Translations under genes and position numbers: made by a program
From: an uncultured Pirellulales bacterium
Lineage (GTDB): Bacteria; Planctomycetota; Phycisphaerae; Sedimentisphaerales; Anaerobacaceae
Direction of reading: 5' to 3'
Assembly: GCA_964575615.1 (NCBI GenBank)
Contig: CAZNSM010000002.1
Coordinates: 5,862 to 69,861 of the forward strand
DNA length: 64,000 nucleotides
The notes under the pieces: generated by a model
The model's database searches: none
What the model was told of the DNA's origin: nothing
The model's input: the letters and a program-made list of their open reading frames with translations, nothing else
Shown: one piece after another, positions 8,910 through 46,200 of the stretch
Layout of the letters: each line of letters opens with the position of its first letter
How positions within the stretch are numbered: the stretch's first letter is position 1

Positions 8910-8957
8910 AGAGAGAATTCAGTTCCTCTGGGTCCCGGTGTCTTTTCTGCCGTCCGG

Positions 8958-9341: not shown

Positions 9342-9357
9342 AGCCGCATTTCCTTTC

Positions 9358-10925: not shown

Positions 10926-10969
10926 GGGTGGCAAATCCTTCCTTGCGTTCGAGCCCTGTCCCGAGATGT

Positions 10970-29236: not shown

Positions 29237-29316
29237 CGCCAGGAGACCTCGGGCCGAAGGATGGAGCGGCCGGCAAGCCTGTTGGGCAGTTTGTAGAAGA
29301 CGACTGTGAGGCAACT

Positions 29317-30504: not shown

Positions 30505-30619
30505 CCCGGACCATCCCGAGGGGGGATTCACGGTCGTTTTGCAGACGGCGGTGTCTGATTTCTATCCAGACGATCCGTCCCGATGGGCCTTGCGCCAAAT
30601 AAACCCCGTTTCACCACAC

Positions 30620-30635
30620 CGGCACGCCGTTTGCA
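30620..30635 (+). promoter_or_regulatory. Sigma-54-type promoter CGGCACGCCGTTTGCA upstream of the modification island
   Basis: GG-N10-GC spacing is exact, and the sequence matches the consensus at all positions but the first. It lies 52 nt upstream of the ATG at 30687. It nearly duplicates the element at 61449-61465. Confidence 0.55.
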
Positions 30636-30686
30636 CACATCGGCCAAGAGTCGCGTTCTACTCCGTTGTCCAAAAGGAGCACACAT

Positions 30687-32198
30687 ATGACCGCACAAAC
30701 CGTTGTGAATGCCCACCAGCGTGGGCTGGAACTGGCCGAGGCCGGAAAATACGAAGCCGCATTGAGCTGCATCCGCGAGCACTTGCGGGCGGCTCCGCAG
30801 GATGCCCAGGCCCTGAACGATGCCGGGGCGATCCTCCATTGCCTGGGGCGCTCCGAGGATGCCGTTGCGCATCTGGTCAAGGCGCATGCGCTGCGCCCGG
30901 ACAGCGGGGAGATCGTCTGGAATCTCGTCGAGGCCTATCTTGCGGCGGGCATGGCCGGTGAGGCCGCCTCCCTGCTCGAGACGATGGAGCGGATGGACAT
31001 CCTCAATATCGAGGTGCTCAACCGCGTCGCCACGATGTTGCTCGATCAGGGCCAGAAAGGTCCGGCTGTCGAGGTCCTGCTGCGGTCGCGTCACCGATGG
31101 CCCGAACAGGACGTGCTCAATCCGATTCTGAGCGTGATCCAGAGCAAACGTCCGAAAATCGCGTTGTTCCGGGTTGGCCAGGGCGTGGACGGCGCTCTGG
31201 CGGAGGCATGGGCATTCGTCCAGGAGCGGTTCCAGACGGAGTTTTGCACGGGCCGCACGCCCGAGGAGCTGTCGCGTCTGATGCAGTGGTGTGACATCGC
31301 CTGGTTCGACGGCGGTGGTCCGATCGTGGCCGAGGCGCTGCAATCGCCGGCGCCGGGCAAGATCCTCGTGAGTCTGCGCTGCTCGGACGTCCGCGACGAC
31401 TGGGCGCGGCGGGTTCGATGGGAGAATGTGGACATCGTGATTCAGATTGGCAGCTCGGCCGTCGAGGAGGCGCTGCTGAGGTGGGTGCCCGACATTCGGA
31501 ATCGGACGCGCCTGGCGGTCGTGCCCCACGGAATCGACCCGACGCGATACGCGTTTCAGCAGCGCGGTCGCGGCAGGAACCTCGCGTGCATGGGCCGGCT
31601 GTCGATGGAATCGAATCCGGCTTTTCTCCTCCAGTGCATGCAGAAGCTGCACTACCTCGACGGAAGTTATCGGCTGTTCTTCTGTGGCGATTTCGAGAAT
31701 CCCATGCTCGAACAATACACGCACCACATGGTTCAGACGCTCGGCCTGACCGGCGTGGTGTCGTTCGATCCCTATGTGGGCGACCAGAACGCGTGGCTTG
31801 GCGACAAGCACTTCATCGTCTCCGGCGGCATCGGCGAGAGCCAGATCGAGTCGCTGCTGACGGGCATGGCCTGCGGGCTGAAGCCCATCGTGCACCATTT
31901 CGCCGGCGCCGACCGTCTGTTCCCGGCGCCGAGTCTGTTCCGCATCGCCGAGGAGTTTTGCGAATGTGCGCTCGGCGGCGAGTATGATCCGGCGGGCTAT
32001 CGGCGGTTCGTGGAAGAACGCTATCCGATTCGCAGGCAACTGCACCAGGTGGGCGGCATCTTGAATCAGCTCGAAAGCGAGATTGACGCCCGGCGTCTCG
32101 GCGTCGGTTCGTGTCGTTCCGGCGGGATTTGCGACGTTCCGACGCCGCGTGGCCGTCGACCCGGTGTGGAAGCCCCCGCCAGCCCGTTCACCCTGTAA
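30687..32198 (+). CDS. TPR + GT-B (group-1-like) glycosyltransferase, FlmG-like architecture (about 503 aa)
   Basis: N-terminal TPR repeats ('AQALNDAGAILHCLGRSEDAVAHLVKAHALRPD') are followed by a glycosyltransferase-like C-terminal half ('FIVSGGIGESQIESLLTGMACGLKPIV'). AAGGAG RBS. Confidence 0.75.
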   Translation: MTAQTVVNAHQRGLELAEAGKYEAALSCIREHLRAAPQDAQALNDAGAILHCLGRSEDAVAHLVKAHALRPDSGEIVWNLVEAYLAAGMAGEAASLLETMERMDILNIEVLNRVATMLLDQGQKGPAVEVLLRSRHRWPEQDVLNPILSVIQSKRPKIALFRVGQGVDGALAEAWAFVQERFQTEFCTGRTPEELSRLMQWCDIAWFDGGGPIVAEALQSPAPGKILVSLRCSDVRDDWARRVRWENVDIVIQIGSSAVEEALLRWVPDIRNRTRLAVVPHGIDPTRYAFQQRGRGRNLACMGRLSMESNPAFLLQCMQKLHYLDGSYRLFFCGDFENPMLEQYTHHMVQTLGLTGVVSFDPYVGDQNAWLGDKHFIVSGGIGESQIESLLTGMACGLKPIVHHFAGADRLFPAPSLFRIAEEFCECALGGEYDPAGYRRFVEERYPIRRQLHQVGGILNQLESEIDARRLGVGSCRSGGICDVPTPRGRRPGVEAPASPFTL

Positions 32199-32233
32199 TA
32201 CTGGCGCCATACGTGAGATTGAACACTCGTCCA

Positions 32234-33907
32234 ATGTCCACAGACCGTCAGGAGAATCTGTCGCAATCCTCCGCTCCGGACGGCCGCGATCGAAGCGGTC
32301 CTCTGGTCAGTGTGTTGCTGCCCACGTACAATCGGCGCCGCTATCTGCCCTACGCTCTGGCCAGCGCCGTGCGGCAGACCTATCGGAACCTGGAAATCTT
32401 CGTGGTCAACGACGGCGGCCACGACGTGCGTGACATTGTTGCATCCTTCGACGATCCGCGAATCCTCTTCATCGATCGGCGCGAGAACCGGGGCAAGCCC
32501 CATTCGCTCAACGAGGCGCTGGCCCGCGCTCGCGGCAAGTACGTCGCCTATCTCGATGATGACGACATCTACTATCCGAACCATGTGCAGGTGCTGGTCG
32601 AAGCGCTGGAGGGGCCGACCGATTGTCAGGTGGCCTACAGCGACCTGTACAAGACCTACTGTCGGGTGCTGTCCAACGGCGATCGGGAGATCCTGAGCAA
32701 GCACGTGGAAATCAGCCGGGATTTCGACCGTTTTCTGATGCTCTACTTCAACCATGCGTTGCACGTGTCCCTGATGCATCGCCGGGATCTGCTGGACCGG
32801 ACGGGTCTCTATAACGAGAATCTGAACATTCTGATCGATTGGGACATGACGCGCCGCCTGGCGTTCTTCTCGGACTTCCAGCACCTGCCCACGATTACGG
32901 GGGAGTTCTACAGTCCGATCGAGGAGTCGGACCGCATCTCGATTCAGCGCCGCAAGGACCCCCAGGAGTATCTGCGGAACGTGCTGGCCATCCGGACCAC
33001 GCACCCTCCGAAGCCGTGGGACAAGCTTGAGGAGCTGGCGATCATCCTGCTCGTCGACCGGCTGGACCGGCGCATCGCAGAAACGTGCGGGCGCCTCTGG
33101 CGGCACACATTCTATCCCTACCGGCTCTATATTCCGCTGTCGCCTCACGACATCGGGCGGCTGAACAGCGAGATGCCGAACATGGTCCTGGTTCCCGTCG
33201 ATCCCCAGAGTTCGGCGCAGCAGAAGGTGGATGCGGCGCTGCAACGGATCGAAAGCGCTTATGTGGCGATTGCGCCCGGCACTCTGCCGATCGAGGAGAT
33301 GTGGGTGGAGGATCCGCTCTACGTGTTGATTCACAGCGCGTCTGATCGGGAAGCGCTTCTGCTGGAGGGCGGTGGTGCAGGACTATGGGGCGCCGTGTTG
33401 AAAGAGGGCGATCTGCGGCAGGCCAGGCGGGCTCACCCTGGCTTGTCGGTGGAAGCCTCGCTGGCGGCCTGCGGCATCCGGGTGCGGCGTCCGCAGCCCG
33501 AAGAGCTGCCGTTTCAGTTCGACGAGTTGTTGCGGCAGGCGTGGCAGGCGGAGGCGGACGGCGATTGGCCGCTGGCGGCCCGGGCCTATGAGTATCTGGC
33601 CGCCCACCATCGCAATGAACTGTGGATGAAGTCTTTGGCGGCCGGCGCCCATTTCCACGCGGGCCATCACGCACAGGCCGCCCGGCTCAGTCGCCAGGTC
33701 AATCAGGTGCGATCGACCGTGGAGACCCTCCTGCTGGAGGCCAGGGTGTGCCGCCGGAAACGGAACTTCACAGACGCCATTGGATTGCTCGAACAAGCCG
33801 AGAGGGGACTTCAAGGTCATCTTCCGATACCTGCACGCACGCCGATGGTCTCAGCGCAAGGGTGGCAGGAAACTGGGGAAACGCAGACATGGATACGGCG
33901 CCAATGA
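32234..33907 (+). CDS. Family-2 glycosyltransferase with helical C-terminal domain (557 aa)
   Basis: 'VSVLLPTYNRRRYLPYALASAVRQTYRNLEIFVVNDGG' and 'YVAYLDDDDIYYPNH' are a classical GT2 N-terminus and a DxD motif. Confidence 0.85.
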   Translation: MSTDRQENLSQSSAPDGRDRSGPLVSVLLPTYNRRRYLPYALASAVRQTYRNLEIFVVNDGGHDVRDIVASFDDPRILFIDRRENRGKPHSLNEALARARGKYVAYLDDDDIYYPNHVQVLVEALEGPTDCQVAYSDLYKTYCRVLSNGDREILSKHVEISRDFDRFLMLYFNHALHVSLMHRRDLLDRTGLYNENLNILIDWDMTRRLAFFSDFQHLPTITGEFYSPIEESDRISIQRRKDPQEYLRNVLAIRTTHPPKPWDKLEELAIILLVDRLDRRIAETCGRLWRHTFYPYRLYIPLSPHDIGRLNSEMPNMVLVPVDPQSSAQQKVDAALQRIESAYVAIAPGTLPIEEMWVEDPLYVLIHSASDREALLLEGGGAGLWGAVLKEGDLRQARRAHPGLSVEASLAACGIRVRRPQPEELPFQFDELLRQAWQAEADGDWPLAARAYEYLAAHHRNELWMKSLAAGAHFHAGHHAQAARLSRQVNQVRSTVETLLLEARVCRRKRNFTDAIGLLEQAERGLQGHLPIPARTPMVSAQGWQETGETQTWIRRQ

Positions 33908-34506
33908 ACGAGGTCGAAAAACGCAAGAGAACCCAGCACTATGAAGTGCTGCGCGAGCTGGGCGACTGCTACACGTCGGTGGGCAACTACGCGCAAGCCC
34001 AGCGCTGCTACGAGAAAGCGGCGTCGATCGGGCCGGATGAGCCGGGACCTTATGTGGGTCTGGGGGCGGCCGCCCTTCAGAGAGGCCAGTGCGAGGATGC
34101 CGAGATTGCGTTTCGCGTCGCCTGCCGGCTGGATCCCAACTGCGCCAAGGCCTACACCGGTCTGGCCATGGTCGCACAGCAGCGCCGAGAATACGCGCCG
34201 GCCTTCGATCTTTACATGAAGTCGCTCGAACTGGACAGCGACAACATCACCGCACTGCTCGGATTGTTCCAGGTCTCCTGTGAGATGGGTTCCTTCGCCA
34301 AAGTGATCTACTACCTGGAGGTCTACCTGCACATGCACCCGGGAGACGCCTCGGTGATGTTCGCGCTGGCGGCATTGTACCTCAAGGACGGGCGTCCGGG
34401 AGAGTCGCGGGAAATGCTGCTCAATCTGCTGGCGCTGGAGCCGACGAATGAAGATGCGACGAACCTGCTGGAAGAAGTGGACCACAGCCTGGCGGGAGCA
34501 CGATAG
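33889..34506 (+). CDS. TPR-repeat protein (about 205 aa)
   Basis: Several canonical TPRs ('LGDCYTSVGNYAQAQRCYEKAASIGPDEP', 'AKAYTGLAMVAQQRREYAPAFDLYMKSLELD'). An alternative ATG at 33904 forms an ATGA overlap with the GT2 stop. Confidence 0.75.
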   Translation: MDTAPMNEVEKRKRTQHYEVLRELGDCYTSVGNYAQAQRCYEKAASIGPDEPGPYVGLGAAALQRGQCEDAEIAFRVACRLDPNCAKAYTGLAMVAQQRREYAPAFDLYMKSLELDSDNITALLGLFQVSCEMGSFAKVIYYLEVYLHMHPGDASVMFALAALYLKDGRPGESREMLLNLLALEPTNEDATNLLEEVDHSLAGAR

Positions 34507-34920: not shown

Positions 34921-36345
34921 ATGAACCTATCTTGTGTCGGTCTCGGAAAGCTGGGCCTTTGCTCGGCGGCGTGCTTCGCCGGCAAGGGACATCACGTCAT
35001 CGGCGTGGATTCCAGCGCCGAGCACATGGAGGCACTCGCCAGCGGACGATGTCCCGTCGACGAGACTGGACTGCCGGCGCTGCTGGACGGGTGCCGAGCG
35101 CGCATGGAGTTCACCCCCGACTACGGGTATGCCGTGAAGCACAGCGACATCACGCTGATCACGGTGCCGACCCCGAGCGACTCGAACGGCCGATTCTCCA
35201 ACGCGTATGTCGAAGCGGTTCTCGATCGCATCGCCGGGGGCCTGAAGGCCAAGAAGTCGTTTCACGTGGTGGCCCTGGTCTCGACGGTCATGCCGACGAC
35301 GTGTGAACACGTCTTCGTGCCCATCCTCGAGAAGCTCACGGGCAAGGTGTGCGGGCGGGACTTCGGGTTCGTCTATAATCCCGAGTTCGTCGCGCTGGGT
35401 TCGGTGATTCACGACTTCCTCCATCCGGACATGCTGCTCATCGGCGCCTCCGACGAGCGGTCGGCGCAACTGTGCCGGGAGCTGTACTCGTCCGTGGTGG
35501 AGAACGATCCGTACTATGCGGTCATGAACCTGACCAACGCGGAGATCACCAAGCTGAGCCTCAACTGCTACGTGACCATGAAGATCAGTTTCGCCAACGA
35601 GTTGGCGTCGATCTGCGAACGGATTCCGGGCGCGGATGTCGACGTGGTGACCACGGCGGTCGGGTCCGATACGCGCGTGGGCCGTCGGTACCTCAAGGGC
35701 GGGCTGGGCTTCGGCGGTCCGTGTTTTCCTCGCGACAACCTGGCGTTTCAGCGATGTGCCGAGGATGCCGGGGCGGATGCGAACCTGAGCCCGCGCGTCG
35801 TCAAGGTCAATGGCGAAGTAGTCAACCGGCTGTTCACCATGATCAGCGAGCACGCCCGGCCCGGATCGAGCGTGGCCTTGCTGGGCCTTTCCTACAAGCC
35901 GGGCACGCACATCATCGAAGAGTCTCAGTCGGTCATGCTCGCAGCGCAGCTCCTCAAGGCGGGCTACGTGGTCCGCATGCACGACCCCAAGGCGCTGGGA
36001 AGCGTCCGCGAGGCGCTTCAGGGACGGGGCATCTACTGCGAAGATCCGTACGACGCCGTCTCCGGGGCCGGCGTGGTGGTGATGCTGACGAACTGGCCGC
36101 AATACAACGAACTGGACGTCGCCCGATTGGAGGAAAGGGCCGGCACGGCGCCGCTGATGATCGATTGCTGGAGAATCTATCGGAACGCCACGCTGAAGAA
36201 ATTCACCTACCGCGCGTTCGGGATGGTGACCGCACCTGCAGGGGGAATCGCACATGACAGTCGCGCAGACATTCTCTACCAGGACCGTCGAGGACGTGCG
36301 CCGGTACTGGAACGCACGTCCGTGCAACATCCGGCACTCACCTAA
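34921..36345 (+). CDS. UDP-glucose/GDP-mannose dehydrogenase-family nucleotide-sugar dehydrogenase (474 aa)
   Basis: N-terminal Rossmann motif 'VGLGKLGLCSAACFA', a central catalytic-Cys region ('GGLGFGGPCFPRD') and the C-terminal UDP-binding domain. AAGGAG RBS. The last 37 or so aa overlap the next gene. Confidence 0.9.
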   Translation: MNLSCVGLGKLGLCSAACFAGKGHHVIGVDSSAEHMEALASGRCPVDETGLPALLDGCRARMEFTPDYGYAVKHSDITLITVPTPSDSNGRFSNAYVEAVLDRIAGGLKAKKSFHVVALVSTVMPTTCEHVFVPILEKLTGKVCGRDFGFVYNPEFVALGSVIHDFLHPDMLLIGASDERSAQLCRELYSSVVENDPYYAVMNLTNAEITKLSLNCYVTMKISFANELASICERIPGADVDVVTTAVGSDTRVGRRYLKGGLGFGGPCFPRDNLAFQRCAEDAGADANLSPRVVKVNGEVVNRLFTMISEHARPGSSVALLGLSYKPGTHIIEESQSVMLAAQLLKAGYVVRMHDPKALGSVREALQGRGIYCEDPYDAVSGAGVVVMLTNWPQYNELDVARLEERAGTAPLMIDCWRIYRNATLKKFTYRAFGMVTAPAGGIAHDSRADILYQDRRGRAPVLERTSVQHPALT

Positions 36346-37102
36346 GCCGGTCGGCACGCGGGCGTACTTCGACGAGGTGGAAGCCCGCAAGTATTTCGTG
36401 GAGCCGCACATCCCGGCCTTCGCCCAGTTCGATCGGTGGGCGGGCAAGAAGGTGCTGGAAATCGGTTGCGGCATCGGGACCGATACGATGGGCTTCGCCC
36501 GGGCGGGCGCCCAAGTCACGGCGGTGGACCTGTCCGATGCGTCGCTGGCGGTGGCGAAGGAACGCGCATCGGTCTTCGGTCTGGCCGATCGCATCCGGTT
36601 CTATCAGGCGAACGTCGAGCGGCTCAGCGAGTCCGTCCCGGTCGAGGAATACGACCTGGTCTACTCCTTCGGCGTCATTCATCACACGCCGCACCCGCAG
36701 GACGCCATCCGCGAGATTCGCAAGTACATGGGACCGCAGAGCGTGTTCAAGATGATGGTGTACCATCGCCATTCCTGGAAGGTGCTCTGGATCCTGCTGA
36801 AGTTCGGGAAAGGGGCCTTCTGGAAGCTCGACGAGCTGATTGCCCGCCACTCCGAGGCCCAGACGGGTTGCCCGGTGACGTACAGCTACTCCCGCCGGAC
36901 CGTGCGCGACCTGTTGCAGGGATTCCGCGTCCGCGCCGCCAGGGTGGACCACATCTTCCCCTACTCGATCCCGGAATACCGGCAGCACAAATACAGGAAG
37001 GTGTGGTACTTCCGCATCCTGCCCGCATGGGCATTTCGCCGGCTGGAACAGAGCCTGGGTTGGCATCTCCTGGTGGATGCCGCGCCGGCAGACAGGTTGT
37101 GA
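36254..37102 (+). CDS. Class I SAM-dependent methyltransferase (282 aa)
   Basis: Motif I 'VLEIGCGIGTDTMGFARAGAQVTAVDLS', followed by 'YDLVYSFGVIHHTP'. Confidence 0.85.
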   Translation: MTVAQTFSTRTVEDVRRYWNARPCNIRHSPKPVGTRAYFDEVEARKYFVEPHIPAFAQFDRWAGKKVLEIGCGIGTDTMGFARAGAQVTAVDLSDASLAVAKERASVFGLADRIRFYQANVERLSESVPVEEYDLVYSFGVIHHTPHPQDAIREIRKYMGPQSVFKMMVYHRHSWKVLWILLKFGKGAFWKLDELIARHSEAQTGCPVTYSYSRRTVRDLLQGFRVRAARVDHIFPYSIPEYRQHKYRKVWYFRILPAWAFRRLEQSLGWHLLVDAAPADRL

Positions 37103-37104
37103 CC

Positions 37105-39441
37105 ATGATGACTATCACCCGCGTCAGTCCCGCAGATCGACCGGCTCCGGTCGTCGAGAAGATCCCTCTGAACCCGGAGGGGCGTCGCTCTCCGATTCAA
37201 CGGATGAAAGACCTCCCGACGATCCAGTTGTTTGCGTCGACGTACTGCAACCTGAAGTGCCCGTATTGCAGTCAGGGACAGCGTCGCAAGCCGGAATTGG
37301 CGGAGGACTTCCTGTCTGACCCGGCTTTGCTGCGCGCGCTGGAACAATGGCAGCCGACGCACTTCTATGTCAGCGGCGGCGAACCCCTGTTGCATCCGGG
37401 CCTGACCCGCTTCCTGCAAAAGGCGGCGCAGTGCCACCACTATGTTTCGTTCGACACCAACGGAGTGGTGCCGACGGAGACCGTCAGCGAGATCCTCGAC
37501 GTCTTTCCGCACGAGCAGTTCGGGTTCTTCAATATCAGCCATCATCTGCTGGCGGGCGTCAAGCTCGGGCACATCACGCCCCTGATCTCGCGCCTGAAGC
37601 AGGCCGGCATCCCGCATTTCGTCAAGTACATCGGCGCCCCGGAGAGCATCGGGACCATCCGCGACCACATGCGGTCGCTCCAGAAGGAGCAGGTGGGCGT
37701 CGCGGTAACTCTGCTGGAGACCTATGCCAACCCCTGGCGGGGCCGGCATCTGCCGCGAGACTACAGCGAGCAGGAACTGCGCGATTTGCTGGAGCTGGTC
37801 ACGCTCGACGTGCACGGGATGCAATTCTTTGGAGGGATCGAGAGCCAGGGGCTGCCGTGCTCGGCCGGGTACAGGTACTTCACGCTGAACATGCGCGAGC
37901 AGCGCGAGCTGTGCGCGTGCTGCCATCGCTCCGATCCGGTCGATTGGAAGCAGACCGTCTTCCTGCGGCCCGCGGCGACAAAGACCATGTATCCTTGCAC
38001 GACGTCGAAGTGCCTGGGTGACCTGATGTTCATTATCGGTTGCCAGGGCCTCGGCGATGAAATCGATCGATTCGAACAGGTGTGTCGCGGGATCTCTCCG
38101 CCCGTCGGGATCGAGTCGGTCCTGCGCTATACGAAGGCCATCGCGCAGCAGCGTCGTCTTGTGCTCCAGGACCGGTTCGACGCCTTCTGCCAGCGATTCC
38201 ACAGCGAGCGGACCGCGCCACAGCCGGAGGCGCCTTGTGCTGCCGTCGCCGCTGGGCCCGCCCCGTTCCGTGAGAAGGTCCTGTCGCCTGAATCGGCGAA
38301 GGGCACAAAGAAGCTCTCCGAGTATCTTGTCGCCTTCCATTCGCTGGCGCAGAAGAGCGAGGCGGAAATCCAGCAGATCTTCCGCGCCATCCCGTTGCGA
38401 GGATACTACTACGATCAGCGACGTTGGCCCGGGTGGCAGAAGCACAACCAGTTGAAGTACTTCCTCAACAAGGCGTACGGCTTCCCGATGAAGTTCAACG
38501 TCGAGGTGGCGACCCAGTGCGTCTTCAAATGCGAGTTCTGCGTGCTGCACAGCGGCCGGCTGGCGCAGAAACGAACCCAGCGCTTCCTTCGCTTCGAGGA
38601 CTTCGCCCGGCTGTTCCTTCAGATCCAGCCGTTTGTGACGCACGTCGAGTTCACCGGAGGCGAGCCTCTGCTGAACGCGGATCTCGGCAAGATGGTCCGC
38701 TTGTGCAACGACTGGAGCGTCAAGACGGTCATTGCCACGAATGCCAAGCTGCTCGACGAGAAACGGATCGACGCGCTGCTGACGGACCCGCCGTCGGAGC
38801 TGCTGGTCGCCTATGAAACCGGGCAGGTCGAAGCCTACGAGAAACATCGCCGCGGCGGCAACCTGGAACTGCTTGTCCACAACATCAAAGGGTTCGTCGA
38901 GGAGCGCAACCGGCGGGGGCAGCCGTCTCCTCGCGTGAAGCTCCAGACCGTGGTCAGCCGCGAAACCGTGTCGCACATGGAGGAGTTCTGGAGGGACGCG
39001 GAACTGCTGGGTGTCGACGAAGCCTGCTCCAAGCCCATCTTTGTCTGGCCCGATGGGGACGATGCGCACTGGCAGATGATGAAGGACAAGTACCTGATCC
39101 CGAACCACCCGCTGAGCTACTACCGAGCCGATGCCCAGGGTCGCCTGCTGCCGACGGGGCGGGAAGGGTTCTGCCCGAACGTCGAGAACGTGCACGTCGG
39201 CGCCGGCGGCGAAGTGGTTCCCTGCTGGTATAACCTCCTGGCGTCGCCGTCGATGGGCAACGCGCTGACCGAGTCGTTCGTCGACATCTGGTTCTCGCCG
39301 ACGTACGATCAGTTCCGCCAGCGCATGGTCGCCCACACCGCCTACGAGCACGGCTGCAAATACTGCATCGGCGTCCATGATCCGAAGTTGTTCGAAACCA
39401 GAGTCTTCGCCGGCAAGACGGAGTCGAAGGTTCCGGCATGA
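37105..39441 (+). CDS. Fusion of two radical-SAM domains, each with a Cys-rich SPASM/twitch-like extension (about 778 aa)
   Basis: Two CxxxCxxC clusters ('STYCNLKCPYCS' and 'ATQCVFKCEFCV') and two Gly-rich SAM-binding-like motifs ('FYVSGGEPLLHP' and 'VEFTGGEPLLNAD'). Cys-rich tails are present ('CACCHRS...', 'GEVVPCWYN...HGCKYCIG'). The ATG at 37105 lies 2 nt after the previous stop. Confidence 0.85.
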   Translation: MMTITRVSPADRPAPVVEKIPLNPEGRRSPIQRMKDLPTIQLFASTYCNLKCPYCSQGQRRKPELAEDFLSDPALLRALEQWQPTHFYVSGGEPLLHPGLTRFLQKAAQCHHYVSFDTNGVVPTETVSEILDVFPHEQFGFFNISHHLLAGVKLGHITPLISRLKQAGIPHFVKYIGAPESIGTIRDHMRSLQKEQVGVAVTLLETYANPWRGRHLPRDYSEQELRDLLELVTLDVHGMQFFGGIESQGLPCSAGYRYFTLNMREQRELCACCHRSDPVDWKQTVFLRPAATKTMYPCTTSKCLGDLMFIIGCQGLGDEIDRFEQVCRGISPPVGIESVLRYTKAIAQQRRLVLQDRFDAFCQRFHSERTAPQPEAPCAAVAAGPAPFREKVLSPESAKGTKKLSEYLVAFHSLAQKSEAEIQQIFRAIPLRGYYYDQRRWPGWQKHNQLKYFLNKAYGFPMKFNVEVATQCVFKCEFCVLHSGRLAQKRTQRFLRFEDFARLFLQIQPFVTHVEFTGGEPLLNADLGKMVRLCNDWSVKTVIATNAKLLDEKRIDALLTDPPSELLVAYETGQVEAYEKHRRGGNLELLVHNIKGFVEERNRRGQPSPRVKLQTVVSRETVSHMEEFWRDAELLGVDEACSKPIFVWPDGDDAHWQMMKDKYLIPNHPLSYYRADAQGRLLPTGREGFCPNVENVHVGAGGEVVPCWYNLLASPSMGNALTESFVDIWFSPTYDQFRQRMVAHTAYEHGCKYCIGVHDPKLFETRVFAGKTESKVPA

Positions 39442-40277
39442 TCGCTATTCGCGAATACGATACGAAAGTCGCGGTGCCCACGACGCCTCCTGACGACGAA
39501 GGATGGATCCGGCAGTGGCACGGGCTGTACATGCTGGCCGAATCGTTCTCGCAGGAGAGTTGGCAGGGTCACGCGCAGTTGTTTTCGGGTCCTTCCTATC
39601 CGGCGCACGCACTGGAGGCCTTTGCCCTGATCTCGATCCTGCGTCACTTTGCTGGGCTCGATCGCTTCCACTTCATCGAACTGGGCAGCGGGCGGTCACC
39701 CTGGTGCCTGACCGTGGCCAGCGTGGTCGCGAACCGCCTGTTCGAGACGCGAATCGCTGACTACTTCGCGCTGGCGGTCGAGGCGGAGCCGCATCATTAC
39801 ATCTGGTCGGCGCTGCACTTTCTGCGACAGGACATTCACGGCGAGGTCGTTCACGGCGCGGTGGGCCGCAGCCGAGGGACCTGTCGTTTCAAGGCCGACA
39901 CCGACCCGGCGGCCCACATGGGACAGGCGGTCCGGCCCGACGGCAACATCGTGGTCGAATGCTACACGATCGAGGACCTGATGCGCGTCCACGGTCTGGC
40001 GCGCGTTCACGCAGTGCACATGGACATCCAGGGCGAGGAGGTCAACGCGGTGATCGGAGCGCAATCCTCGCTGGACGCCATCGACTTCTTTATCATTGGA
40101 ACGCACGGATCGCAGATCGAAGCCGAACTGAAACGATGGCTCGGGCGCACGCATCGGCTGGTGCTGGAGCTGCCGCGAGGTGGATCGCTGCACCTGGCCG
40201 GCATCGATCGGCCCTTCGTCTCTGCGGATGACGGCGTTCAAGTTTATCAGCGAGAAGCATTGTGTCGGGGAACCTGA
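39438..40277 (+). CDS. FkbM-family methyltransferase-like protein (279 aa)
   Basis: 'FIELGSGRSPW' and 'VHAVHMDIQGEEVNAVIGA' resemble FkbM-family motifs. ATGA overlap with the upstream stop. Confidence 0.7.
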   Translation: MIAIREYDTKVAVPTTPPDDEGWIRQWHGLYMLAESFSQESWQGHAQLFSGPSYPAHALEAFALISILRHFAGLDRFHFIELGSGRSPWCLTVASVVANRLFETRIADYFALAVEAEPHHYIWSALHFLRQDIHGEVVHGAVGRSRGTCRFKADTDPAAHMGQAVRPDGNIVVECYTIEDLMRVHGLARVHAVHMDIQGEEVNAVIGAQSSLDAIDFFIIGTHGSQIEAELKRWLGRTHRLVLELPRGGSLHLAGIDRPFVSADDGVQVYQREALCRGT

Positions 40278-42334
40278 GAACCCAGGAGCCAACTCCTCCC
40301 TGGCGTCTGGGCGAAGACGTGAAGACCGAACGGCTCCTTGCCTATCTGGCGGAGTGCTCGGACCGGTTGCGAGCCGCGCTCGGACGGCAGGACCACGTCG
40401 GCATTTGCAGCGCTTTGCGCGAACACGTCTATCGCGTGGTCAACTGGTCCAACTGCGGGCTCAACACCAGGCGTTTCTTCCACCGGTTCGCGGACGTCTC
40501 GATTTCGGATCTGATCCTGCTTTCCCATGCCAAGGAAGTCGGGTTCCTGTGCGGGGGCACGTCGGAGTTCCTGCGGAAACTCTACGTCGCCCTCGGGTAT
40601 GACGCATACGTCTACAATTACGGTCTGCCGGGCGTATCCACGCACGTGACGACCCTGGTGATGATACCCTGCGGCCGCGAGACCATGCCGGTGTTTCAGG
40701 ACGCCACGTTCAATTTCACTCTTGAAGCGAAAGGCACATCCGACGCCGTTGCTGTGTTTCGGGCGGTTGCGCGGGCAGATTTCGCCGATCTGCGCATTGT
40801 CAAGGGCGCCATCGGGCCGAGGAATATCTATTTCCTCGCGGATGCCGTCCATGAGTCGTTTGATTACTACCAGGCGAACGATGTCTTCCTCGGTCCGGCC
40901 CGGGCGGAGCGGTCGGCCATCACGCACACGAACCTGCTGGTGGCGCCGGCGGACCTCGACTACGACACGAGCTACCGAAGGCGAAGAGAGGCAGGCGTGC
41001 TCGATGCCCTTTCCGCACGATTGGGTCGTCCACGTTCGGAGGTCCATCTCTCGCAACTGATGCTCTTCCCGATCGACATCGGCCCGACCCACCGAGCCGA
41101 CCACCGCAGAGTGTTTGACACGTTGCTGACGATCGCGGCCGAGGCGCGGAAAGCCTCGTGCCCGCAGGAAGGTGGCGCGACAGAGGATACAGGGAGTGTC
41201 CCGATGAACGTTGGACAGATGGTCAGTGCCGGCATCGACATGTACCACAAGGGCGACGTGCCCAACGCCACGAGCGTGTTCCGTCACGCGGTGGCGGCCG
41301 ATCCCGAGCACGCGAATGCGTGGAACAACCTGGGCGTGCTGCTGGTCCAGCAGAACCAGATCTCCGAGGGCCTGCGTTGTTTCCAGAACGCCTTTCGGAG
41401 GGACCGCACCAACGGCGCCCTCGTGTCGAACTACGTCAGCGTGTTGCGCAAAGCCGGTCGGTCGGATGAGGCCCACGACGTCGTCGATCAGTATCTTCGG
41501 GCCGGCGGCGATCCGCAGCGCTTCGGCGGCGTGGCCGACAAACCGGCCGAAGCGCCCGCCGATTCTATGCCCCTCGACGACAGGACTGTTCCCTTCGTTC
41601 CGGTCCAGGAACTGCACCGCGCCCTCGGATTCCAGACGCCGATCGAGTACCCCGCGTCGTCGCTGACCAAATCGCTCAGCGCCTGGAAGATGGAAATCGA
41701 CGACATGCCGATCTTCCGCTACCTCTATCGCCACTTTCGGCCGCGACGCCATCTGGAGTTCGGCACCTGGCAGGGCGCCGGCGTCGTCTACTGCCTCCAG
41801 GAGTGTGACGCCACCGTCTGGACGCTGAACCTGCCGTTCGGGGAATCGCAACCCAACGGCGAGCCGGCCTATTCCGGCGACGGCGACTCCTACGGCCTGG
41901 GCACCTCGCTGGTAGGTGAATGGGCGCGGCGCATCGGGCTGCCCGAGCGGCGCGAACACCCGACGGACTCGTTCGGCTTCATCGGCCGCTTCTATCTGGA
42001 GAAGCAGCTTGGACATCGCGTCTGCCAGATCTTCTGCGATTCGCGGCAGTGGGACACCTCGAACTATCCGCCGGGGTTCTTCGACACGGCTCTCATCGAC
42101 GGCGGCCATTTCCCCGAGATCGTCGCCTCCGACAGCCGCAAGGCGCTGTCCCTGCTCCGGCCCGGCGGCCTGATCCTCTGGCACGATTTCTGCCCCTCGA
42201 TGCGCGACCGCAGTCCCGTGGTCCAGGGAGTGATGCAGGGCGTGGAAAGCATCCGTGACCTGCTTGCGGATCAGCTCGAACGATGGTTCTGGATCAAGCC
42301 CAGCCATATCCTCGTGGGGAGGAAGAAGGCATGA
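40262..42334 (+). CDS. Three-part protein: unknown N-domain + TPR + class I methyltransferase-like C-domain (690 aa)
   Basis: Central TPRs ('ANAWNNLGVLLVQQNQISEGLRCFQNAFRRD'). C-terminal 'HLEFGTWQGAGVVYCL...ALIDGGHFPEIVASDSRKALSLLRPGGLILWHDF' is methyltransferase-like. GTG start overlaps the upstream gene by 16 nt. Confidence 0.75.
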   Translation: MSGNLRTQEPTPPWRLGEDVKTERLLAYLAECSDRLRAALGRQDHVGICSALREHVYRVVNWSNCGLNTRRFFHRFADVSISDLILLSHAKEVGFLCGGTSEFLRKLYVALGYDAYVYNYGLPGVSTHVTTLVMIPCGRETMPVFQDATFNFTLEAKGTSDAVAVFRAVARADFADLRIVKGAIGPRNIYFLADAVHESFDYYQANDVFLGPARAERSAITHTNLLVAPADLDYDTSYRRRREAGVLDALSARLGRPRSEVHLSQLMLFPIDIGPTHRADHRRVFDTLLTIAAEARKASCPQEGGATEDTGSVPMNVGQMVSAGIDMYHKGDVPNATSVFRHAVAADPEHANAWNNLGVLLVQQNQISEGLRCFQNAFRRDRTNGALVSNYVSVLRKAGRSDEAHDVVDQYLRAGGDPQRFGGVADKPAEAPADSMPLDDRTVPFVPVQELHRALGFQTPIEYPASSLTKSLSAWKMEIDDMPIFRYLYRHFRPRRHLEFGTWQGAGVVYCLQECDATVWTLNLPFGESQPNGEPAYSGDGDSYGLGTSLVGEWARRIGLPERREHPTDSFGFIGRFYLEKQLGHRVCQIFCDSRQWDTSNYPPGFFDTALIDGGHFPEIVASDSRKALSLLRPGGLILWHDFCPSMRDRSPVVQGVMQGVESIRDLLADQLERWFWIKPSHILVGRKKA

Positions 42335-43170: not shown

Positions 43171-43223
43171 CGAACGAGGACGCACACCCGGGACAGCGCG
43201 ATGCGAAGGCCCGAGAAGTGAGG

Positions 43224-46200
43224 ATGCACGCAGTGAACGATACACCCTACTTGAGCGTGGTGGCCACGTCGCGAAACGACGATCACGGCGGCAATCTGGT
43301 GCTGCGCATGCAGTTGTTCGTCCAGTGCCTGATGGCCCAGGCGAAGCGGCACCGCCTGAAGACGGAACTGATCCTGGTGGAATGGAATCCGCCCGCCGAC
43401 CGTCCCCGGCTGAGGGAGGCGCTGCGCTTCGACGCCCATCATCCGTTCTGCTCGGTGCGCATCGTCGAGGTCCCGGCGGCGATCCACGCTCGCTATCGGC
43501 ACGCGCAGGCCTTGCCGGTGTACCAGATGATCGCCAAGAACGTGGGCATTCGCCGGGCGCGCGGCCGTTTCGTCCTGGCGACGAACGTGGACATCGTGTT
43601 CTCCGATCCGCTGTTTGCCCGCCTGGCGAAGCAGGATCTTCAGTCCGGGCGCTGCTATCGCAGCATCCGCCACGATGTGGACAACGCATTGACGTCCGGG
43701 ATGCCTGTCGAAGCGGTCCTGGACTATTGCCAGAGCCATTTGATCCGCGTGAACCAGCGAGAGTGCTCGCTCAACGTGCGTGACGGGTCCAGACATGTCG
43801 TCTACCGTCCGGGTGTGAGTGAGGCGCAGCTTGGGCACCCGAAGCTGTTCACCAACGGTTGCGGCGATTTCACCCTTCTGGCGCAGGAGGACTGGTCTCG
43901 TCTGCGCGGCTACGCGGAACTGGACATGTTCTCCTTCCATCTGGATTCACTGTTCCTGCACTGTGCGTACTACGCCGGGATCGCCGAACACGTGTTTCCC
44001 GACGACCACGTGCACTACCACATCGAGCACCAGGAGGGGTGGACCCCGGAGATTCATCGCGACCGAACGCTGGACGCCCGGTTGGACAAGGGACAGATCG
44101 ATCGTCTGGACAACGCCTCCCTGCGCCGGCTGCTGGACCGCATGCGAAACGAGGGAAAACCGCTGATCTTCAACGACGCGAACTGGGGCCTGGCCAACGA
44201 CCATTTGGCCGAAGAGCGCGTGACCATTGCGGATTGGGAACGAACGGAACCGCAGGAGGCCGCGAGCGCGGGCAAAGCGGCCGATACAGCGTGGGCTAAA
44301 GCCCATCCTACGTATCTGAGCGTCGTGGTGACGACGCGGAACGATGACCACGGCGGGAATCACCTCCATCGGTTCCAGGTCTTCCTCGACCATCTGGCCG
44401 ACATGTGCGCGCGGCATCGCCTCGCGGCCGAGCTGATCGTGGTGGAATGGAACCCCGACCCCTCGCGGCCGTCGCTGGTCCAGGCGATGCGCTGGCCCGA
44501 TCCGTCGCGACTGGCGAGCCGGGTGATCGTTGTTCCTCCTGAGATTCATCGATCGTACCGGAACTCCGACAAGTTCCCGTTGTTCCAGATGATCGCCAAG
44601 AACGTGGGAATTCGGCGGGCCCGAGGGCAATACGTTCTGGCGACCAACATGGACGTGCTCTTCTCTGACGAACTGGCCGCCTGGCTGGCCCGGCGGGAGC
44701 TGCGGGAGGACTGTGTCTACCGCATCGACCGGCACGATGTGGGCCAGACCGCGATCCCGTCGGGATTGTCGCGCGACGAGGTCCTGGAGTTCTGCGCCCG
44801 TCACGTGGTGCGCGTCCACGGGCAGCATGGCACCTGTGCGTGGGGCGATCCGCCGCGGGTCGGCGATCCGGACCGACTGCACAGCCATGCCTGCGGCGAC
44901 TTCACCCTGATGGCGCGCACCCAGTGGGAGCGGCTCAAAGGCTATCCGGAATTCCCCCTGTGGTCGATCTATCTGGACGGCCTGCTGCTTCATGCGGCGC
45001 GCGCCGTCGGTCTGGAGCAGAAGATCCTTCGCGAGCCACTGCGCCTCTACCATGTCGAGCATTCGCTCGGCTGGGCGGTGAACCAGGACACCGTCAAAGA
45101 GCGACCGAGCCTGGATTACCACAAGGAATACCAGCCCCTGTGCGCGGAGATGCTGCGTACTCACAAGGCGCTGGACGTGAATTCGGAGAACTGGGGCCTG
45201 AAGGATAAGGCGCTGGAAGAGTGTGAGCCTGGAGCGCGCGGTTTGCCGCCGGCGTCGATGACGTGCACTGCCGGCGAGCGGCCGGACGGCTTGTCGGACA
45301 AGATCGTCCGCTCCTGGATCGACCGCATCAGCTCCACGGAGAATCGACTCTACTACCGAGACCAGTCCGCACAGACCCTGATCGCTCTGGCCCGCTATGC
45401 CCGCACAATGAATCCCACGGTGGTCGTGGAGCTGGGAACGCTGGCCGGGCTTTCGCTGCGCACCTGGATCGCCGCGGCCGAACGCGCCAGGATCTACGCG
45501 GTCGATCTGAGCTTCCAGACCTTGCAGGAGACCGGACGCGTTCTGCCCCTGGACCTGTCGCGCGTCACTCTGCTGGAGCAGGACATCCTCAAGACGGATT
45601 TTGCATCCCTCTGGACCGCGCAGGACCGGGTGATCTTCTTCGTGGATGCGCACGATCTGCCCGGCGTGCCGATCATGGAGCACGTGCTGACGAGGGCGCT
45701 TCCGGCCTTGCCGGACGGCAGCCTGGTGGTCGTGGACGATCTGTGGTTCAGCGCCGAAAGACTGACGCGCGACAACGCCAAGGCGTTTCTGGACAGCCGC
45801 GTGGTTGCAGAGATCGACGAGCTGCAATGCTTCGAAGGGTATTACGCGCCGTACCACGAAGGCGGCTCGTTCATGGGCTTTGCCGAGGTTATCCCGCTGC
45901 TGAAATTCGTCAACGCGCACGGCATTCTGCTGGCCTGCGAGAAAGGGGGCAAGCAGGTCTCGTTCGTGTGGCGAAGCGCCTTGCGAGAGGCAGTCAGATC
46001 GCGCGGGGCAGGTTCAACGGAGCCGGCCGAGTGCTACGGTTCGGTGTTGCACAATCCGCTGACCTCTGTTCCCGTGCCGGCGCCGCTGCGGGAAATGATG
46101 GACGGCCTCGCCCAGGAGTACCGGCAGAAGAAGATCGTGCCGGTAGCGGAACGCCTGGCCAGGCTCCTGGAGCAGTATCCCAACGATCCGGGTTTGTCCT

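What the first reader, a model, noticed from the sequence alone, without database searches (positions are those of the whole stretch)
37105..39441. Fusion of two complete radical-SAM domains in one 778-aa protein within the glycosylation island
**Seen in sequence.** There are two separate CxxxCxxC clusters: CNLKCPYC near the N-terminus and CVFKCEFC at about residue 470. Each is followed by a GGEPLL SAM-binding-like motif and by its own Cys-rich auxiliary-cluster-like tail.

**Established knowledge.** SPASM/twitch radical-SAM enzymes typically modify peptides or proteins (thioether, Cα-formylglycine and similar products) or perform unusual sugar chemistry.

**Inference.** Tandem fusion of two such domains is uncommon. 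Here it sits among glycosyltransferases and methyltransferases. That placement suggests either sequential radical modification of a sugar (C-methylation, epimerisation or deoxygenation) or direct modification of a flagellar protein substrate.
Basis: partly seen in the sequence, partly recalled or inferred. Interest (0 to 1): 0.7.

Follow-up and report, generated by a model that had tools for sequence, protein, structure and literature searches.

The report
Fused pair of radical-SAM sugar enzymes
One 778-residue protein really does join two complete but different radical-SAM enzymes, which are neighbouring separate genes in most relatives and always sit among sugar-building genes, so it most likely performs two radical steps in making an unusual sugar for the flagellum or cell surface.

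Summary
Window 37105-39441 (+) encodes a 778-aa protein with two CxxxCxxC motifs (C48/52/55 and C472/476/479). Each motif is followed by GGEP and by four invariant extra cysteines.

- **Both halves are radical-SAM domains.** Each half alone passes the Pfam Radical_SAM cut-off.
- **The C-half is a twitch-type enzyme.** It has one auxiliary cluster, like BtrN, not a full 7-Cys SPASM domain.
- **The N-half is divergent.** It is a separate family with a twitch/SPASM-like fold and a non-canonical Cys pattern.
- **The halves are not a recent duplication.** They share 32% identity over 65 residues only.

The fusion is not an error. It recurs in at least 12 relatives down to 34% identity, and dN/dS against a 91% ortholog is 0.05-0.15 across both halves.

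Most relatives carry the two modules as adjacent separate genes, N then C. Fusion arose or broke more than once. The pair travels with a nucleotide-sugar 6-dehydrogenase, three kinds of methyltransferase and glycosyltransferases. It lies in flagellar loci, and in two loci directly beside Wzm/Wzt polysaccharide exporters.

The substrate is therefore most likely a sugar or glycan, not flagellin peptide. The chemistry is unknown. No curated family or paper covers it. I rate it an uncharacterised variant of a known enzyme class, of moderate interest.

The parts
37105..39441 (+). 778-aa fused double radical-SAM gene (alternative start at M34 = nt 37204)
   Evidence: ORF and translation. Pfam Radical_SAM x2 plus SPASM. 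The exact sequence occurs on 8 contigs and a 12-member 90% cluster is named 'radical SAM protein [Sedimentisphaerales bacterium]'. dN/dS is 0.05-0.15 against the 91% ortholog L090.
37216..37839 (+). N-module radical-SAM core (residues 38-245), including the SAM-cluster motif C48-x3-C52-x2-C55 (nt 37246-37269) and GGEP 91-94 (nt 37375-37386)
   Evidence: Pfam Radical_SAM 45.0 bits for the half alone. The motif is invariant in 39 homologs. The AF2 model shows alternating strand/helix elements with pLDDT above 90.
37858..38085 (+). N-module auxiliary Cys domain (residues 252-327). C252, C272, C298 and C303 are invariant; C273 is 95%, H274 87% and C327 67% conserved.
   Evidence: Conservation in 39 sequences. 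The fold search of the N-half model hits BlsE, anSME, SuiB, SpeY and SkfB over about 280-390 columns. There is no Pfam SPASM hit.
38212..38265 (+). Low-confidence Pro/Ala-rich linker (residues 370-387) between the two modules
   Evidence: pLDDT below 50 for 370-387. The region is poorly conserved in alignment A1.
38296..38478 (+). Helical N-terminal extension of the C-module (residues 398-458)
   Evidence: AF2 predicts three helices and no sheet. The region is also present at the N-terminus of standalone C-type proteins, whose profile matches start at position about 380-395. There is no RRE or PqqD Pfam hit.
38485..39054 (+). C-module radical-SAM core (residues 461-650), including C472-x3-C476-x2-C479 (nt 38518-38541) and GGEP 518-521 (nt 38656-38667)
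   Evidence: Pfam Radical_SAM 49.7 bits for the half alone. The motif is invariant in 27 homologs. PDB sequence hits are SuiB, BlsE, viperin and GDGT-MAS.
39172..39366 (+). C-module twitch domain (residues 690-754) with invariant cysteines C690, C707, C751 and C754
   Evidence: Pfam SPASM 35.1 bits. Only four invariant Cys, with no CX5CX3C. It aligns to the BtrN twitch domain. The model places C690 before a beta-hairpin, C707 after it, and C751/C754 after the helices.
34921..36345 (+). Nucleotide-sugar 6-dehydrogenase, closest to UDP-glucose dehydrogenases
   Evidence: TIGR03026 scores 345 bits against a cut-off of 190; AglM and TuaD are the next best matches. An ortholog lies next to the rSAM pair in 6 of 8 other loci.
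36254..37102 (+). Class I SAM methyltransferase (public gene calls start at 36377)
   Evidence: Pfam Methyltransf_25/11/31. It is 59-75% identical in L082, L083, L085 and L087.
39438..40277 (+). FkbM-family methyltransferase, translationally overlapping the rSAM gene
   Evidence: Pfam Methyltransf_21. The equivalent domain is fused to the C-terminus of the double rSAM in P0010 and P0020. It is 45-51% identical in 5 of 8 loci.
40262..42334 (+). 690-aa protein made of an unknown N-terminal domain, TPR repeats and a Methyltransf_24 domain
   Evidence: Pfam. The MT24 domain is fused to the double rSAM in P0007, P0008, P0009, P0018 and P0019 and to an N-module in P0012. It is 52-68% identical in 4 loci.
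43218..55577 (+). 4119-aa multidomain ORF with MT24, TPR, three GT2 domains and a third radical-SAM/twitch domain (nt 52053-52940)
   Evidence: Pfam. Segments 1-1400 have homologs next to the rSAM pair in 5 loci.
29233..34506 (+). FlgL (29233-30504), TPR-GT1 (30666-32198), GT2 (32111-33907) and a TPR protein (33622-34506), forming the upstream edge of the island
   Evidence: The same order occurs in L085 with 48-64% identity.
55704..57731 (+). FliD filament cap, the downstream edge of the island
   Evidence: Pfam FliD_N and FliD_C.

Best explanation
The gene encodes two different, catalytically complete radical-SAM enzymes joined by a flexible linker.

**Predicted cofactors (inferred).** Each module should bind one SAM-cleaving [4Fe-4S] cluster and one fully Cys-ligated auxiliary [4Fe-4S] cluster. 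That gives four clusters per chain.

**Origin (shown).** In most relatives the two modules are neighbouring genes, N then C. They therefore form an obligate working pair, and this lineage has fused them.

**Role (inferred from context).** The pair belongs to a conserved cassette. The other members are a nucleotide-sugar 6-dehydrogenase that probably makes a uronic acid, class I, FkbM and MT24 methyltransferases, and glycosyltransferases. Together these build a heavily tailored sugar. In this genome the TPR-glycosyltransferases encoded between flgL and fliD then use that sugar on the flagellum.

**Mechanism (by analogy).**
1. Each module cleaves SAM to a 5'-deoxyadenosyl radical.
2. The radical abstracts a hydrogen from a sugar carbon.
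3. The auxiliary cluster takes the electron from the substrate radical.
4. The outcome is oxidation to a keto-sugar, epimerisation, dehydration or decarboxylation, as in BtrN, SpeY, DesII and BlsE.

The two modules would catalyse two consecutive steps of this kind. It is unresolved whether the substrate is the nucleotide-sugar or the already transferred glycan.
For: **Both modules look active.**
- CxxxCxxC and GGE are invariant in both halves, and each half has four invariant auxiliary Cys.
- Each half passes Pfam Radical_SAM on its own.
- The AF2 models are confident: pLDDT 87 for the full length and 90 for the N-half.
- dN/dS is 0.11 for the N-half and 0.05 for the C-half against L090.

**The two modules are functional partners.**
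- Standalone N-type and C-type genes are adjacent, some overlapping, in L003, L087, L088 and L089.
- Fused forms fall in at least two clades interleaved with solo forms.

**The substrate is a sugar or glycan.**
- The dehydrogenase is present in 7 of 9 loci, counting the window. FkbM, class I and MT24 methyltransferases recur as well.
- FkbM or MT24 domains are fused to the double rSAM in P0007-P0010 and P0018-P0020.
- Wzm/Wzt lies directly upstream in L002 and L082, with no flagellar gene within 10 kb.
- L087 carries a DegT aminotransferase, an acetyltransferase and an epimerase. L089 carries a cytidylyltransferase and Maf.
- A third rSAM-twitch domain is embedded between GT2 domains in the 4119-aa ORF.

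**Similarity to sugar-acting enzymes.**
- The C-half twitch domain aligns with BtrN.
- The closest solved structures include the sugar- or nucleotide-acting enzymes BlsE, DesII, BtrN, SpeY, AbmM and viperin.
- There is no RRE domain.
Against: - No biochemical data exist.
- Similarity to characterised enzymes is confined to the generic SAM-binding core. Identity is 13-19% and TM about 0.5. The same searches also return the peptide-modifying enzymes SuiB, anSME, SkfB, PqqE and EpeE with similar scores.
- The literature warns that function cannot be read from similarity in this subfamily (PMC6231123).
- TPR domains fused to some family members (P0008, P0013, P0018) could mean protein recognition.
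- The context sample is small (9 loci), and each locus was found through the protein itself.
- The dehydrogenase is absent from the 10 kb upstream and 5 kb downstream of the fused gene in L002.
- Binding of auxiliary clusters is inferred from cysteine conservation only.
- The N-half Cys pattern (C-x19-C-x25-C-x4-C) has no solved counterpart.
Confidence: 0.55

Rival explanations
1. The enzyme modifies amino-acid residues of a protein, either flagellin or another flagellar or secreted protein. The reaction could be epimerisation, Cα or Cβ oxidation, or cross-linking. This is what many SPASM/twitch enzymes do.
For: - The structural neighbours include anSME, SuiB, SkfB, PqqE and EpeE.
- The gene lies between flgL and fliD.
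- TPR protein-interaction repeats are fused to N-type or fused family members: P0013, P0008 and P0018.
- TPR proteins abound in the island.
Against: - There is no RRE or PqqD-like peptide-binding domain. The only extension is three helices.
- The pair also occurs beside Wzm/Wzt polysaccharide exporters with no flagellar genes within 10 kb.
- The constant neighbours are a nucleotide-sugar dehydrogenase and small-molecule-type methyltransferases.
- The motif scan found no flagellin gene in the window.
Confidence: 0.15
2. Only one module is the catalyst. The other is a non-catalytic or accessory partner, for example an electron-transfer subunit, a scaffold, or an activase-like helper for the first.
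For: - The N-half resembles small activating enzymes in its first 150 residues: PFL-AE, NrdG and QueE hits.
- At least one distant N-type relative (P0053) has lost the CxxxCxxC motif.
- The low pTM of 0.59 leaves the relation between the domains open.
Against: - Both SAM motifs, both GGE motifs and both sets of four auxiliary Cys are invariant across 27-39 diverse sequences.
- Both halves are under strong purifying selection.
- No glycyl-radical enzyme partner is present in any locus.
Confidence: 0.15
3. The fusion is an assembly or sequencing artefact, such as a lost stop codon or a frameshift between two adjacent genes.
For: Adjacent split N and C genes with overlapping stop and start exist in relatives. 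A single-base error could therefore fuse them.
Against: - The identical 778-aa sequence is on 8 contigs, and near-identical ones come from several sources.
- A 91% ortholog from another sample (L090) is also uninterrupted.
- Fused relatives at 34-57% identity keep a roughly 115-residue linker region with conserved motifs.
- The linker has dN/dS 0.15.
Confidence: 0.02

Closest known systems
BtrN (2-deoxy-scyllo-inosamine dehydrogenase) and SpeY, twitch-domain radical-SAM dehydrogenases acting on sugar-like substrates
   Same: - They have a radical-SAM core plus a truncated SPASM ('twitch') domain with one auxiliary [4Fe-4S] cluster ligated by four Cys (PMC9012708, PMC6231123).
- The C-half has exactly four invariant Cys in the same order: one before the hairpin, one after it, and CxxC after the helices. 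It aligns to the BtrN twitch domain.
- SpeY is among the best sequence and fold hits of the N-half.
   Different: - Identity is only about 15-19% and scores are far below any family threshold.
- These are single-module enzymes of 250-320 aa from antibiotic pathways.
- The N-half Cys spacing does not match them.
- Substrate and reaction here are unknown.
BlsE (cytosylglucuronate decarboxylase, blasticidin S pathway)
   Same: - It is a radical-SAM enzyme acting on a glucuronic-acid-derived sugar (PMC3715490).
- It is the top fold hit of the N-half and a top-5 hit of the whole protein and the C-half.
- A nucleotide-sugar 6-dehydrogenase that would supply a uronic acid lies two genes upstream, with the class I methyltransferase between them.
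   Different: - NCBIfam rSAM_BlsE scores 38 bits against a cut-off of 400, so this protein is not a member.
- TM is 0.5-0.6 at 13-17% identity.
- There is no evidence for decarboxylation.
Proteins with two radical-SAM motifs or domains: FbiC (CofG+CofH fusion), MJ0619/GDGT-MAS and Tes
   Same: [quoted passage not shown] FbiC is likewise a fusion of two enzymes that are separate genes in other organisms (my own knowledge).
   Different: - They are not homologous beyond the generic core. GDGT-MAS is only a weak hit, E about 2e-4 over roughly 85 residues.
- They belong to different pathways (cofactor and lipid).
- Here both modules also carry their own auxiliary-cluster domain.
SPASM-domain peptide maturases (anSME, SuiB, PqqE, SkfB)
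   Same: They share the overall fold class and have comparable Foldseek scores. Pfam SPASM hits the C-half.
   Different: - There is no RRE.
- The 7-Cys SPASM motif is incomplete, with 4 Cys only.
- The genomic context is glycan biosynthesis, with no precursor-peptide gene noted.

Membership tests
Radical SAM superfamily (PF04055), N-half | CxxxCxxC cluster motif, GGE SAM-binding motif and a partial TIM-barrel core | tested here: met
   C48/52/55 and G91-G92-E93 are invariant in 39 sequences. Pfam scores 45.0 bits against a cut-off of 29.5. The AF2 model shows alternating beta/alpha elements with pLDDT above 90.
Radical SAM superfamily (PF04055), C-half | CxxxCxxC cluster motif, GGE SAM-binding motif and a partial TIM-barrel core | tested here: met
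   C472/476/479 and G519-E520-P521 are invariant in 27 sequences. Pfam scores 49.7 bits against 29.5. AF2 model.
SPASM domain (two auxiliary clusters) | Seven-cysteine motif CX9-15GX4C-gap-CX2CX5CX3C-gap-C (PMC6231123) | tested here: not met
   The C-half has only C690, C707, C751 and C754 conserved, and no Cys follows C754. The Pfam SPASM model still matches at 35 bits because it also covers twitch domains. The N-half gets no SPASM hit.
Twitch domain (one auxiliary cluster), C-half | A truncated SPASM with one Cys before the beta-hairpin, one after it, and two after helix alpha2' (PMC6231123) | tested here: met
   Four invariant Cys. The model places C690 before E695-705, C707 just after, and C751/C754 after H732-742. 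It aligns to the BtrN twitch domain.
Twitch domain, C-half and N-half | Actual binding of an auxiliary Fe-S cluster | not testable with these tools
   This needs anaerobic reconstitution, Fe/S analysis and EPR or Mossbauer spectroscopy.
Twitch/SPASM-like auxiliary domain, N-half | Canonical Cys spacing and sequence similarity to known twitch domains | tested here: inconclusive
   Four invariant Cys are present (C252, C272, C298, C303) but with the spacing x19, x25, x4. There is no Pfam hit. The fold search aligns the whole half to BlsE and anSME at TM about 0.5. PDB profile hits cover only the core.
RiPP radical-SAM maturases | An N-terminal RRE (PqqD-like) peptide-binding domain | tested here: not met
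   No PqqD or RRE Pfam hit at E<=1. Residues 1-24 are low-confidence in the model, and the core's first strand begins at residue 39. Residues 398-458 form three helices without a sheet.
RiPP radical-SAM maturases | An adjacent precursor-peptide gene | not tested
   Small ORFs were not searched systematically. All the called neighbours are enzymes.
BlsE family (TIGR04466) | Score above the curated cut-off | tested here: not met
   38.4 bits against a cut-off of 400.
Any NCBIfam radical-SAM equivalog (MoaA, PqqE, viperin, W-cofactor maturase, HpnH, QueE, NrdG) | Score above the curated cut-off | tested here: not met
   The best match is TIGR04317 at 101 bits against 380. None of the 25 best of the 77 matched families reaches its cut-off; the remaining 52 lower-scoring matches were not listed.

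The most novel reading that the evidence does not exclude
The N-type and C-type radical-SAM pair, together with the uronic-acid-forming dehydrogenase and three methyltransferases, is a widespread but unrecognised cassette of anaerobic bacteria (Planctomycetota, Desulfobacterota, Verrucomicrobiota). It makes a structurally new, radical-tailored sugar, for example a ring-modified, C-branched or decarboxylated and methylated uronic acid. This sugar is used both as a flagellar glycan and as the cap or unit of Wzm/Wzt-exported polysaccharides. The N-module would represent a new auxiliary-cluster domain type with chemistry not yet seen in carbohydrate radical-SAM enzymes.
Probability: 0.3. Interest if true: 0.7.

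Novelty: new variant of a known kind. Interest (0 to 1): 0.5.

Why it matters
Radical-SAM enzymes that act on sugars are few, and each characterised one (BtrN, DesII, BlsE, SpeY, AprD4 and viperin-type enzymes) revealed new chemistry.

- **A defined, uncharacterised pair.** This work defines a conserved two-enzyme radical-SAM pair with clear partners: a dehydrogenase, three methyltransferases and glycosyltransferases. It also identifies a natural fusion protein that could be expressed as one unit.
- **An unstudied role.** My literature searches found no paper that describes radical-SAM chemistry in flagellin glycosylation.
- **A concrete entry point.** If the cassette makes a new sugar, it would extend the known repertoire of bacterial surface glycans in anaerobes. 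It would also give a way into the poorly known flagellar glycosylation of Planctomycetota.
- **If it is not a new sugar.** It remains a useful annotation correction, from 'radical SAM protein' to a fused two-module twitch-type enzyme of glycan biosynthesis.

Tried and rejected
- **Tandem duplication rejected.** The halves share only 32% identity over 65 residues around the SAM motif. They have different auxiliary Cys patterns and match different standalone families.
- **Full SPASM rejected for the C-half.** It has only four conserved Cys.
- **Curated families gave no membership.** Nothing among the listed NCBIfam matches is above cut-off.
- **PDB sequence searches reach only the generic core.** This held for single sequences and for the A3 profile of the N-half.
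- **Fold search of the full-length model is not domain-resolved and has high rmsd.** I therefore modelled the N-half separately. Even so, TM stays at about 0.5, and sugar-acting and peptide-acting enzymes are intermixed. Function cannot be read from it.
- **Collection scans added little.**
  - The genome scan found only 3 true relatives among 185,579 species genomes.
  - The metagenome scan added only 3 more, including a 91% ortholog.
- **Literature searches found nothing on this family.** I searched radical SAM with flagellin glycosylation, FkbM, UDP-glucuronic acid, and two radical SAM domains.
- **The extra standalone rSAM of relatives is not in the giant ORF.** I checked whether the 408-450 aa rSAM of relatives (L083, L085, L088) corresponds to the rSAM inside the 4119-aa ORF. 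It does not: identity is 27-29% over part of the length.
- **No flagellin gene found in the window** with an N-terminal motif scan. This is a weak test.
Full report

Yes. Window 37105-39441 (+) is an uninterrupted 778-codon ORF. Its ATG lies 2 nt after the stop of the upstream methyltransferase gene. Its stop overlaps the ATG of the downstream FkbM-type methyltransferase.

- The motifs are CNLKCPYC at residues 48-55 and CVFKCEFC at 472-479. GGEP is at 91-94 and 518-521.
- Pfam gives Radical_SAM at E=1.3e-25 in two stretches, plus SPASM at 694-754.
- Scanned separately, each half passes the Radical_SAM gathering score: 45.0 and 49.7 bits against 29.5.
- Some public gene calls start at M34 and give 745 aa. 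The ATG-ATG start is conserved in a 91% ortholog, and residues 1-37 show dN/dS 0.27. The start is therefore not settled, and it does not affect either domain.

**2. Is the fusion genuine?**

Yes.

- The exact sequence occurs on 8 contigs. Its 90% cluster has 12 members from several sources, named 'radical SAM protein [Sedimentisphaerales bacterium]'.
- A 5.8-billion-protein search found fused relatives at 57% and 52% identity, and five more at 34-38%.
- A profile search of 1.84 billion representatives added further fused clusters: P0018-P0022.
- Against the 91% ortholog L090, dN/dS is 0.11 for the N-half, 0.15 for the linker region and 0.05 for the C-half, with no stops.

**3. Anatomy**

The two halves are not a recent duplication. 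They share 32% identity over 65 residues around the SAM motif and nothing else.

*C-half*
- Across 27 homologs the invariant residues include C472/476/479, G519-E520-P521, and exactly four further cysteines: C690, C707, C751 and C754.
- The canonical SPASM motif needs seven cysteines for two auxiliary clusters. The truncated 'twitch' form binds one (PMC6231123, PMC9012708).
- The AF2 model places C690 before a beta-hairpin, C707 just after it, and C751/C754 after the following helices. That is the twitch topology described in PMC6231123.
- The segment aligns to the BtrN twitch domain.
- The C-half is therefore a twitch-type enzyme, not a full SPASM.

*N-half*
- Across 39 homologs the invariant residues are C48/52/55, G91-G92-E93, H112, N119, H147, and four further cysteines: C252, C272, C298 and C303. 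C273 is 95% conserved and H274 87%.
- Pfam SPASM does not detect this tail.
- A confident model of the half (pLDDT 90.4, pTM 0.89) aligns over most of its length with BlsE, anSME, SuiB, SpeY and SkfB at TM about 0.5.
- I read it as a divergent twitch/SPASM-clan enzyme with a non-canonical Cys arrangement.

*Linker and extension*
- Residues 370-387 form a low-confidence Pro/Ala linker.
- Residues 398-458 form three helices, which also precede the core in standalone C-type proteins.
- No RRE-like peptide-binding domain is present.

*Prediction (inferred)*: four [4Fe-4S] clusters per chain.

**4. The two modules are a conserved gene pair**

The representative search shows many standalone N-type proteins of about 335-376 aa. 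It also shows many standalone C-type proteins of about 370-400 aa.

In all four loci where I could see the DNA, the two are adjacent in the order N then C:

| Locus | N gene | C gene |
|---|---|---|
| L003 | 261-1307 | 1304-2455 |
| L087 | 10001-11023 | 11020-12216 |
| L088 | 8927-10042 | 10058-11245 |
| L089 | 8430-9437 | 9497-10642 |

A rough neighbour-joining tree of N-modules puts fused forms in at least two clades interleaved with solo forms. It has no support values. Fusion or fission has probably happened more than once.

Some relatives carry further domains:
- P0010 and P0020 add the FkbM methyltransferase, which is the next gene in the window.
- P0007, P0008, P0009, P0018 and P0019 add the MT24 methyltransferase, which is part of the gene after that.
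- P0012 and P0013 have the N-module alone, joined to MT24 or to TPR repeats.

**5. Context**

In the window the gene order is:
1. FlgE, FlgF, FlgG, FlgA, FlgH, FlgI and FlgK.
2. FlgL at 29233-30504. TIGR02550 scores above its cut-off, so this is not flagellin.
3. TPR-GT1, GT2, a TPR protein and a 132-aa ORF.
4. A nucleotide-sugar 6-dehydrogenase. TIGR03026 scores 345 bits, and the closest families are the UDP-glucose dehydrogenases AglM and TuaD.
5. A class I methyltransferase.
6. The double radical-SAM gene.
7. An FkbM methyltransferase, an unknown/TPR/MT24 protein and an FkbM-like ORF.
8. A 4119-aa ORF, then FliD.

Across eight other loci the recurring neighbours are as follows:

| Neighbour | Loci | Identity |
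|---|---|---|
| Nucleotide-sugar dehydrogenase | 6 of 8 | 41-61% |
| Class I methyltransferase | 4 of 8 | 59-75% |
| FkbM methyltransferase | 5 of 8 | 45-51% |
| MT24 methyltransferase | 4 of 8 | 52-68% |
| First 700 residues of the giant ORF | 5 of 8 | 38-58% |

- L085 repeats the flagellar arrangement (FlgL, TPR-GT, GT2, TPR, FliT).
- L089 carries Maf and a cytidylyltransferase.
- In L002 and L082 the fused gene directly follows a Wzm/Wzt ABC exporter, with no flagellar gene within 10 kb.
- L087 carries a DegT aminotransferase, an acetyltransferase and an epimerase.

The constant association is therefore with sugar and glycan biosynthesis, not with flagellin as such.

**6. Most likely function**

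*Shown:* two complete, conserved radical-SAM modules that behave as an obligate pair inside a sugar-tailoring cassette.

*Inferred:* each module abstracts a hydrogen from a sugar carbon. Its fully ligated auxiliary cluster then oxidises the substrate radical, as proposed for BtrN (PMC9012708). Possible outcomes are a keto-sugar, epimerisation, dehydration, or decarboxylation of a uronic acid (BlsE, PMC3715490). The methyltransferases would act on or around these intermediates.

*Unresolved:* whether the substrate is the nucleotide-sugar or the transferred glycan. The TPR fusions hint that some steps may occur on a protein-bound glycan.

*Rivals:*
- Protein-residue modification is weakened by the lack of an RRE and by the Wzm/Wzt contexts.
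- A non-catalytic partner module is weakened by invariant motifs and low dN/dS in both halves.
- An artefact is excluded.

Similarity to characterised enzymes is confined to the generic core. Sugar-acting and peptide-acting enzymes score alike. The literature warns against reading function from similarity in this subfamily (PMC6231123).

**7. Comparison with what is known, and novelty**

- Among the listed NCBIfam matches, none reaches its cut-off. The best is 101 bits against 380.
- Proteins with two radical-SAM motifs are known: FbiC, MJ0619/GDGT-MAS and Tes (PMC11917521, PMC5943407, PMC8941075). A fusion as such is therefore not new.
- Other multi-radical-SAM proteins appear in the database, with 3-6 matched stretches in P0116, P0133, P0142 and P0161. 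P0014 has two rSAM/SPASM units.
- New here are the specific N+C pair, the non-canonical auxiliary domain of the N-module, and the pair's place in flagellar and cell-surface glycan cassettes of anaerobes. My literature searches found nothing on any of these.

I classify it as a new variant of a known kind. Interest is moderate, at 0.5. It is a good enzymology target but not a surprise in kind.

Noticed in passing
window 43218-55577 (+): A single 4119-aa ORF combines Methyltransf_24, TPR repeats, three GT2 glycosyltransferase domains and a third radical-SAM plus twitch/SPASM domain (nt 52053-52940; CNGGCVMC, then C..PCC..CKHC). Its first 1400 residues have homologs next to the rSAM pair in five other loci. 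A radical-SAM domain covalently fused to glycosyltransferases is unusual.
   Followed up: partly
window 29233-30504 (+): The 'Flagellin_N' gene after FlgK is FlgL: TIGR02550 scores 166 bits against a cut-off of 127. A motif scan found no flagellin gene anywhere in the 64-kb window. The glycosylation island lies between flgL and fliD, where flagellin genes often sit.
   Followed up: partly
L083 2563-3789; L085 5416-6768; L088 17462-18697: Relatives carry an additional conserved standalone radical-SAM gene of 408-450 aa, 52-65% identical among themselves, just upstream of or near the sugar dehydrogenase. The window lacks it. The rSAM domain of the giant ORF is not its ortholog.
   Followed up: partly
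L002 7768-9958 and L082 7818-9926: A Wzm/Wzt ABC exporter with the Wzt_C carbohydrate-binding domain lies directly upstream of the fused double-rSAM gene in two non-flagellar loci. In known systems Wzt_C reads a chain-terminating modification, which is my own knowledge. The cassette might therefore make such a cap.
   Followed up: no
protein P0053 (1135 aa): A distant N-type module has lost the CxxxCxxC motif ('HLFSHYSSRDVKS') but keeps the CCH and later Cys of the auxiliary domain. It is a possible pseudo-radical-SAM relative.
   Followed up: no
window 40262-41221 (+), the first ~320 residues of the 690-aa protein: The N-terminal domain has no Pfam match. It is conserved at 35-38% identity as a separate gene next to the rSAM pair in L003, L082 and L087. 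It is an uncharacterised member of the cassette.
   Followed up: no
window 20570-21853 (+): A 427-aa ORF with a weak PilZ-domain hit lies between the flgE and flgF-like genes. It may be a c-di-GMP-responsive flagellar regulator.
   Followed up: no
L089 10655-12130: A B12-binding radical-SAM enzyme, the class B methylase type, follows the split N/C pair in a locus that also has Maf and a cytidylyltransferase. Some versions of the cassette therefore hold three or four radical-SAM enzymes.
   Followed up: no
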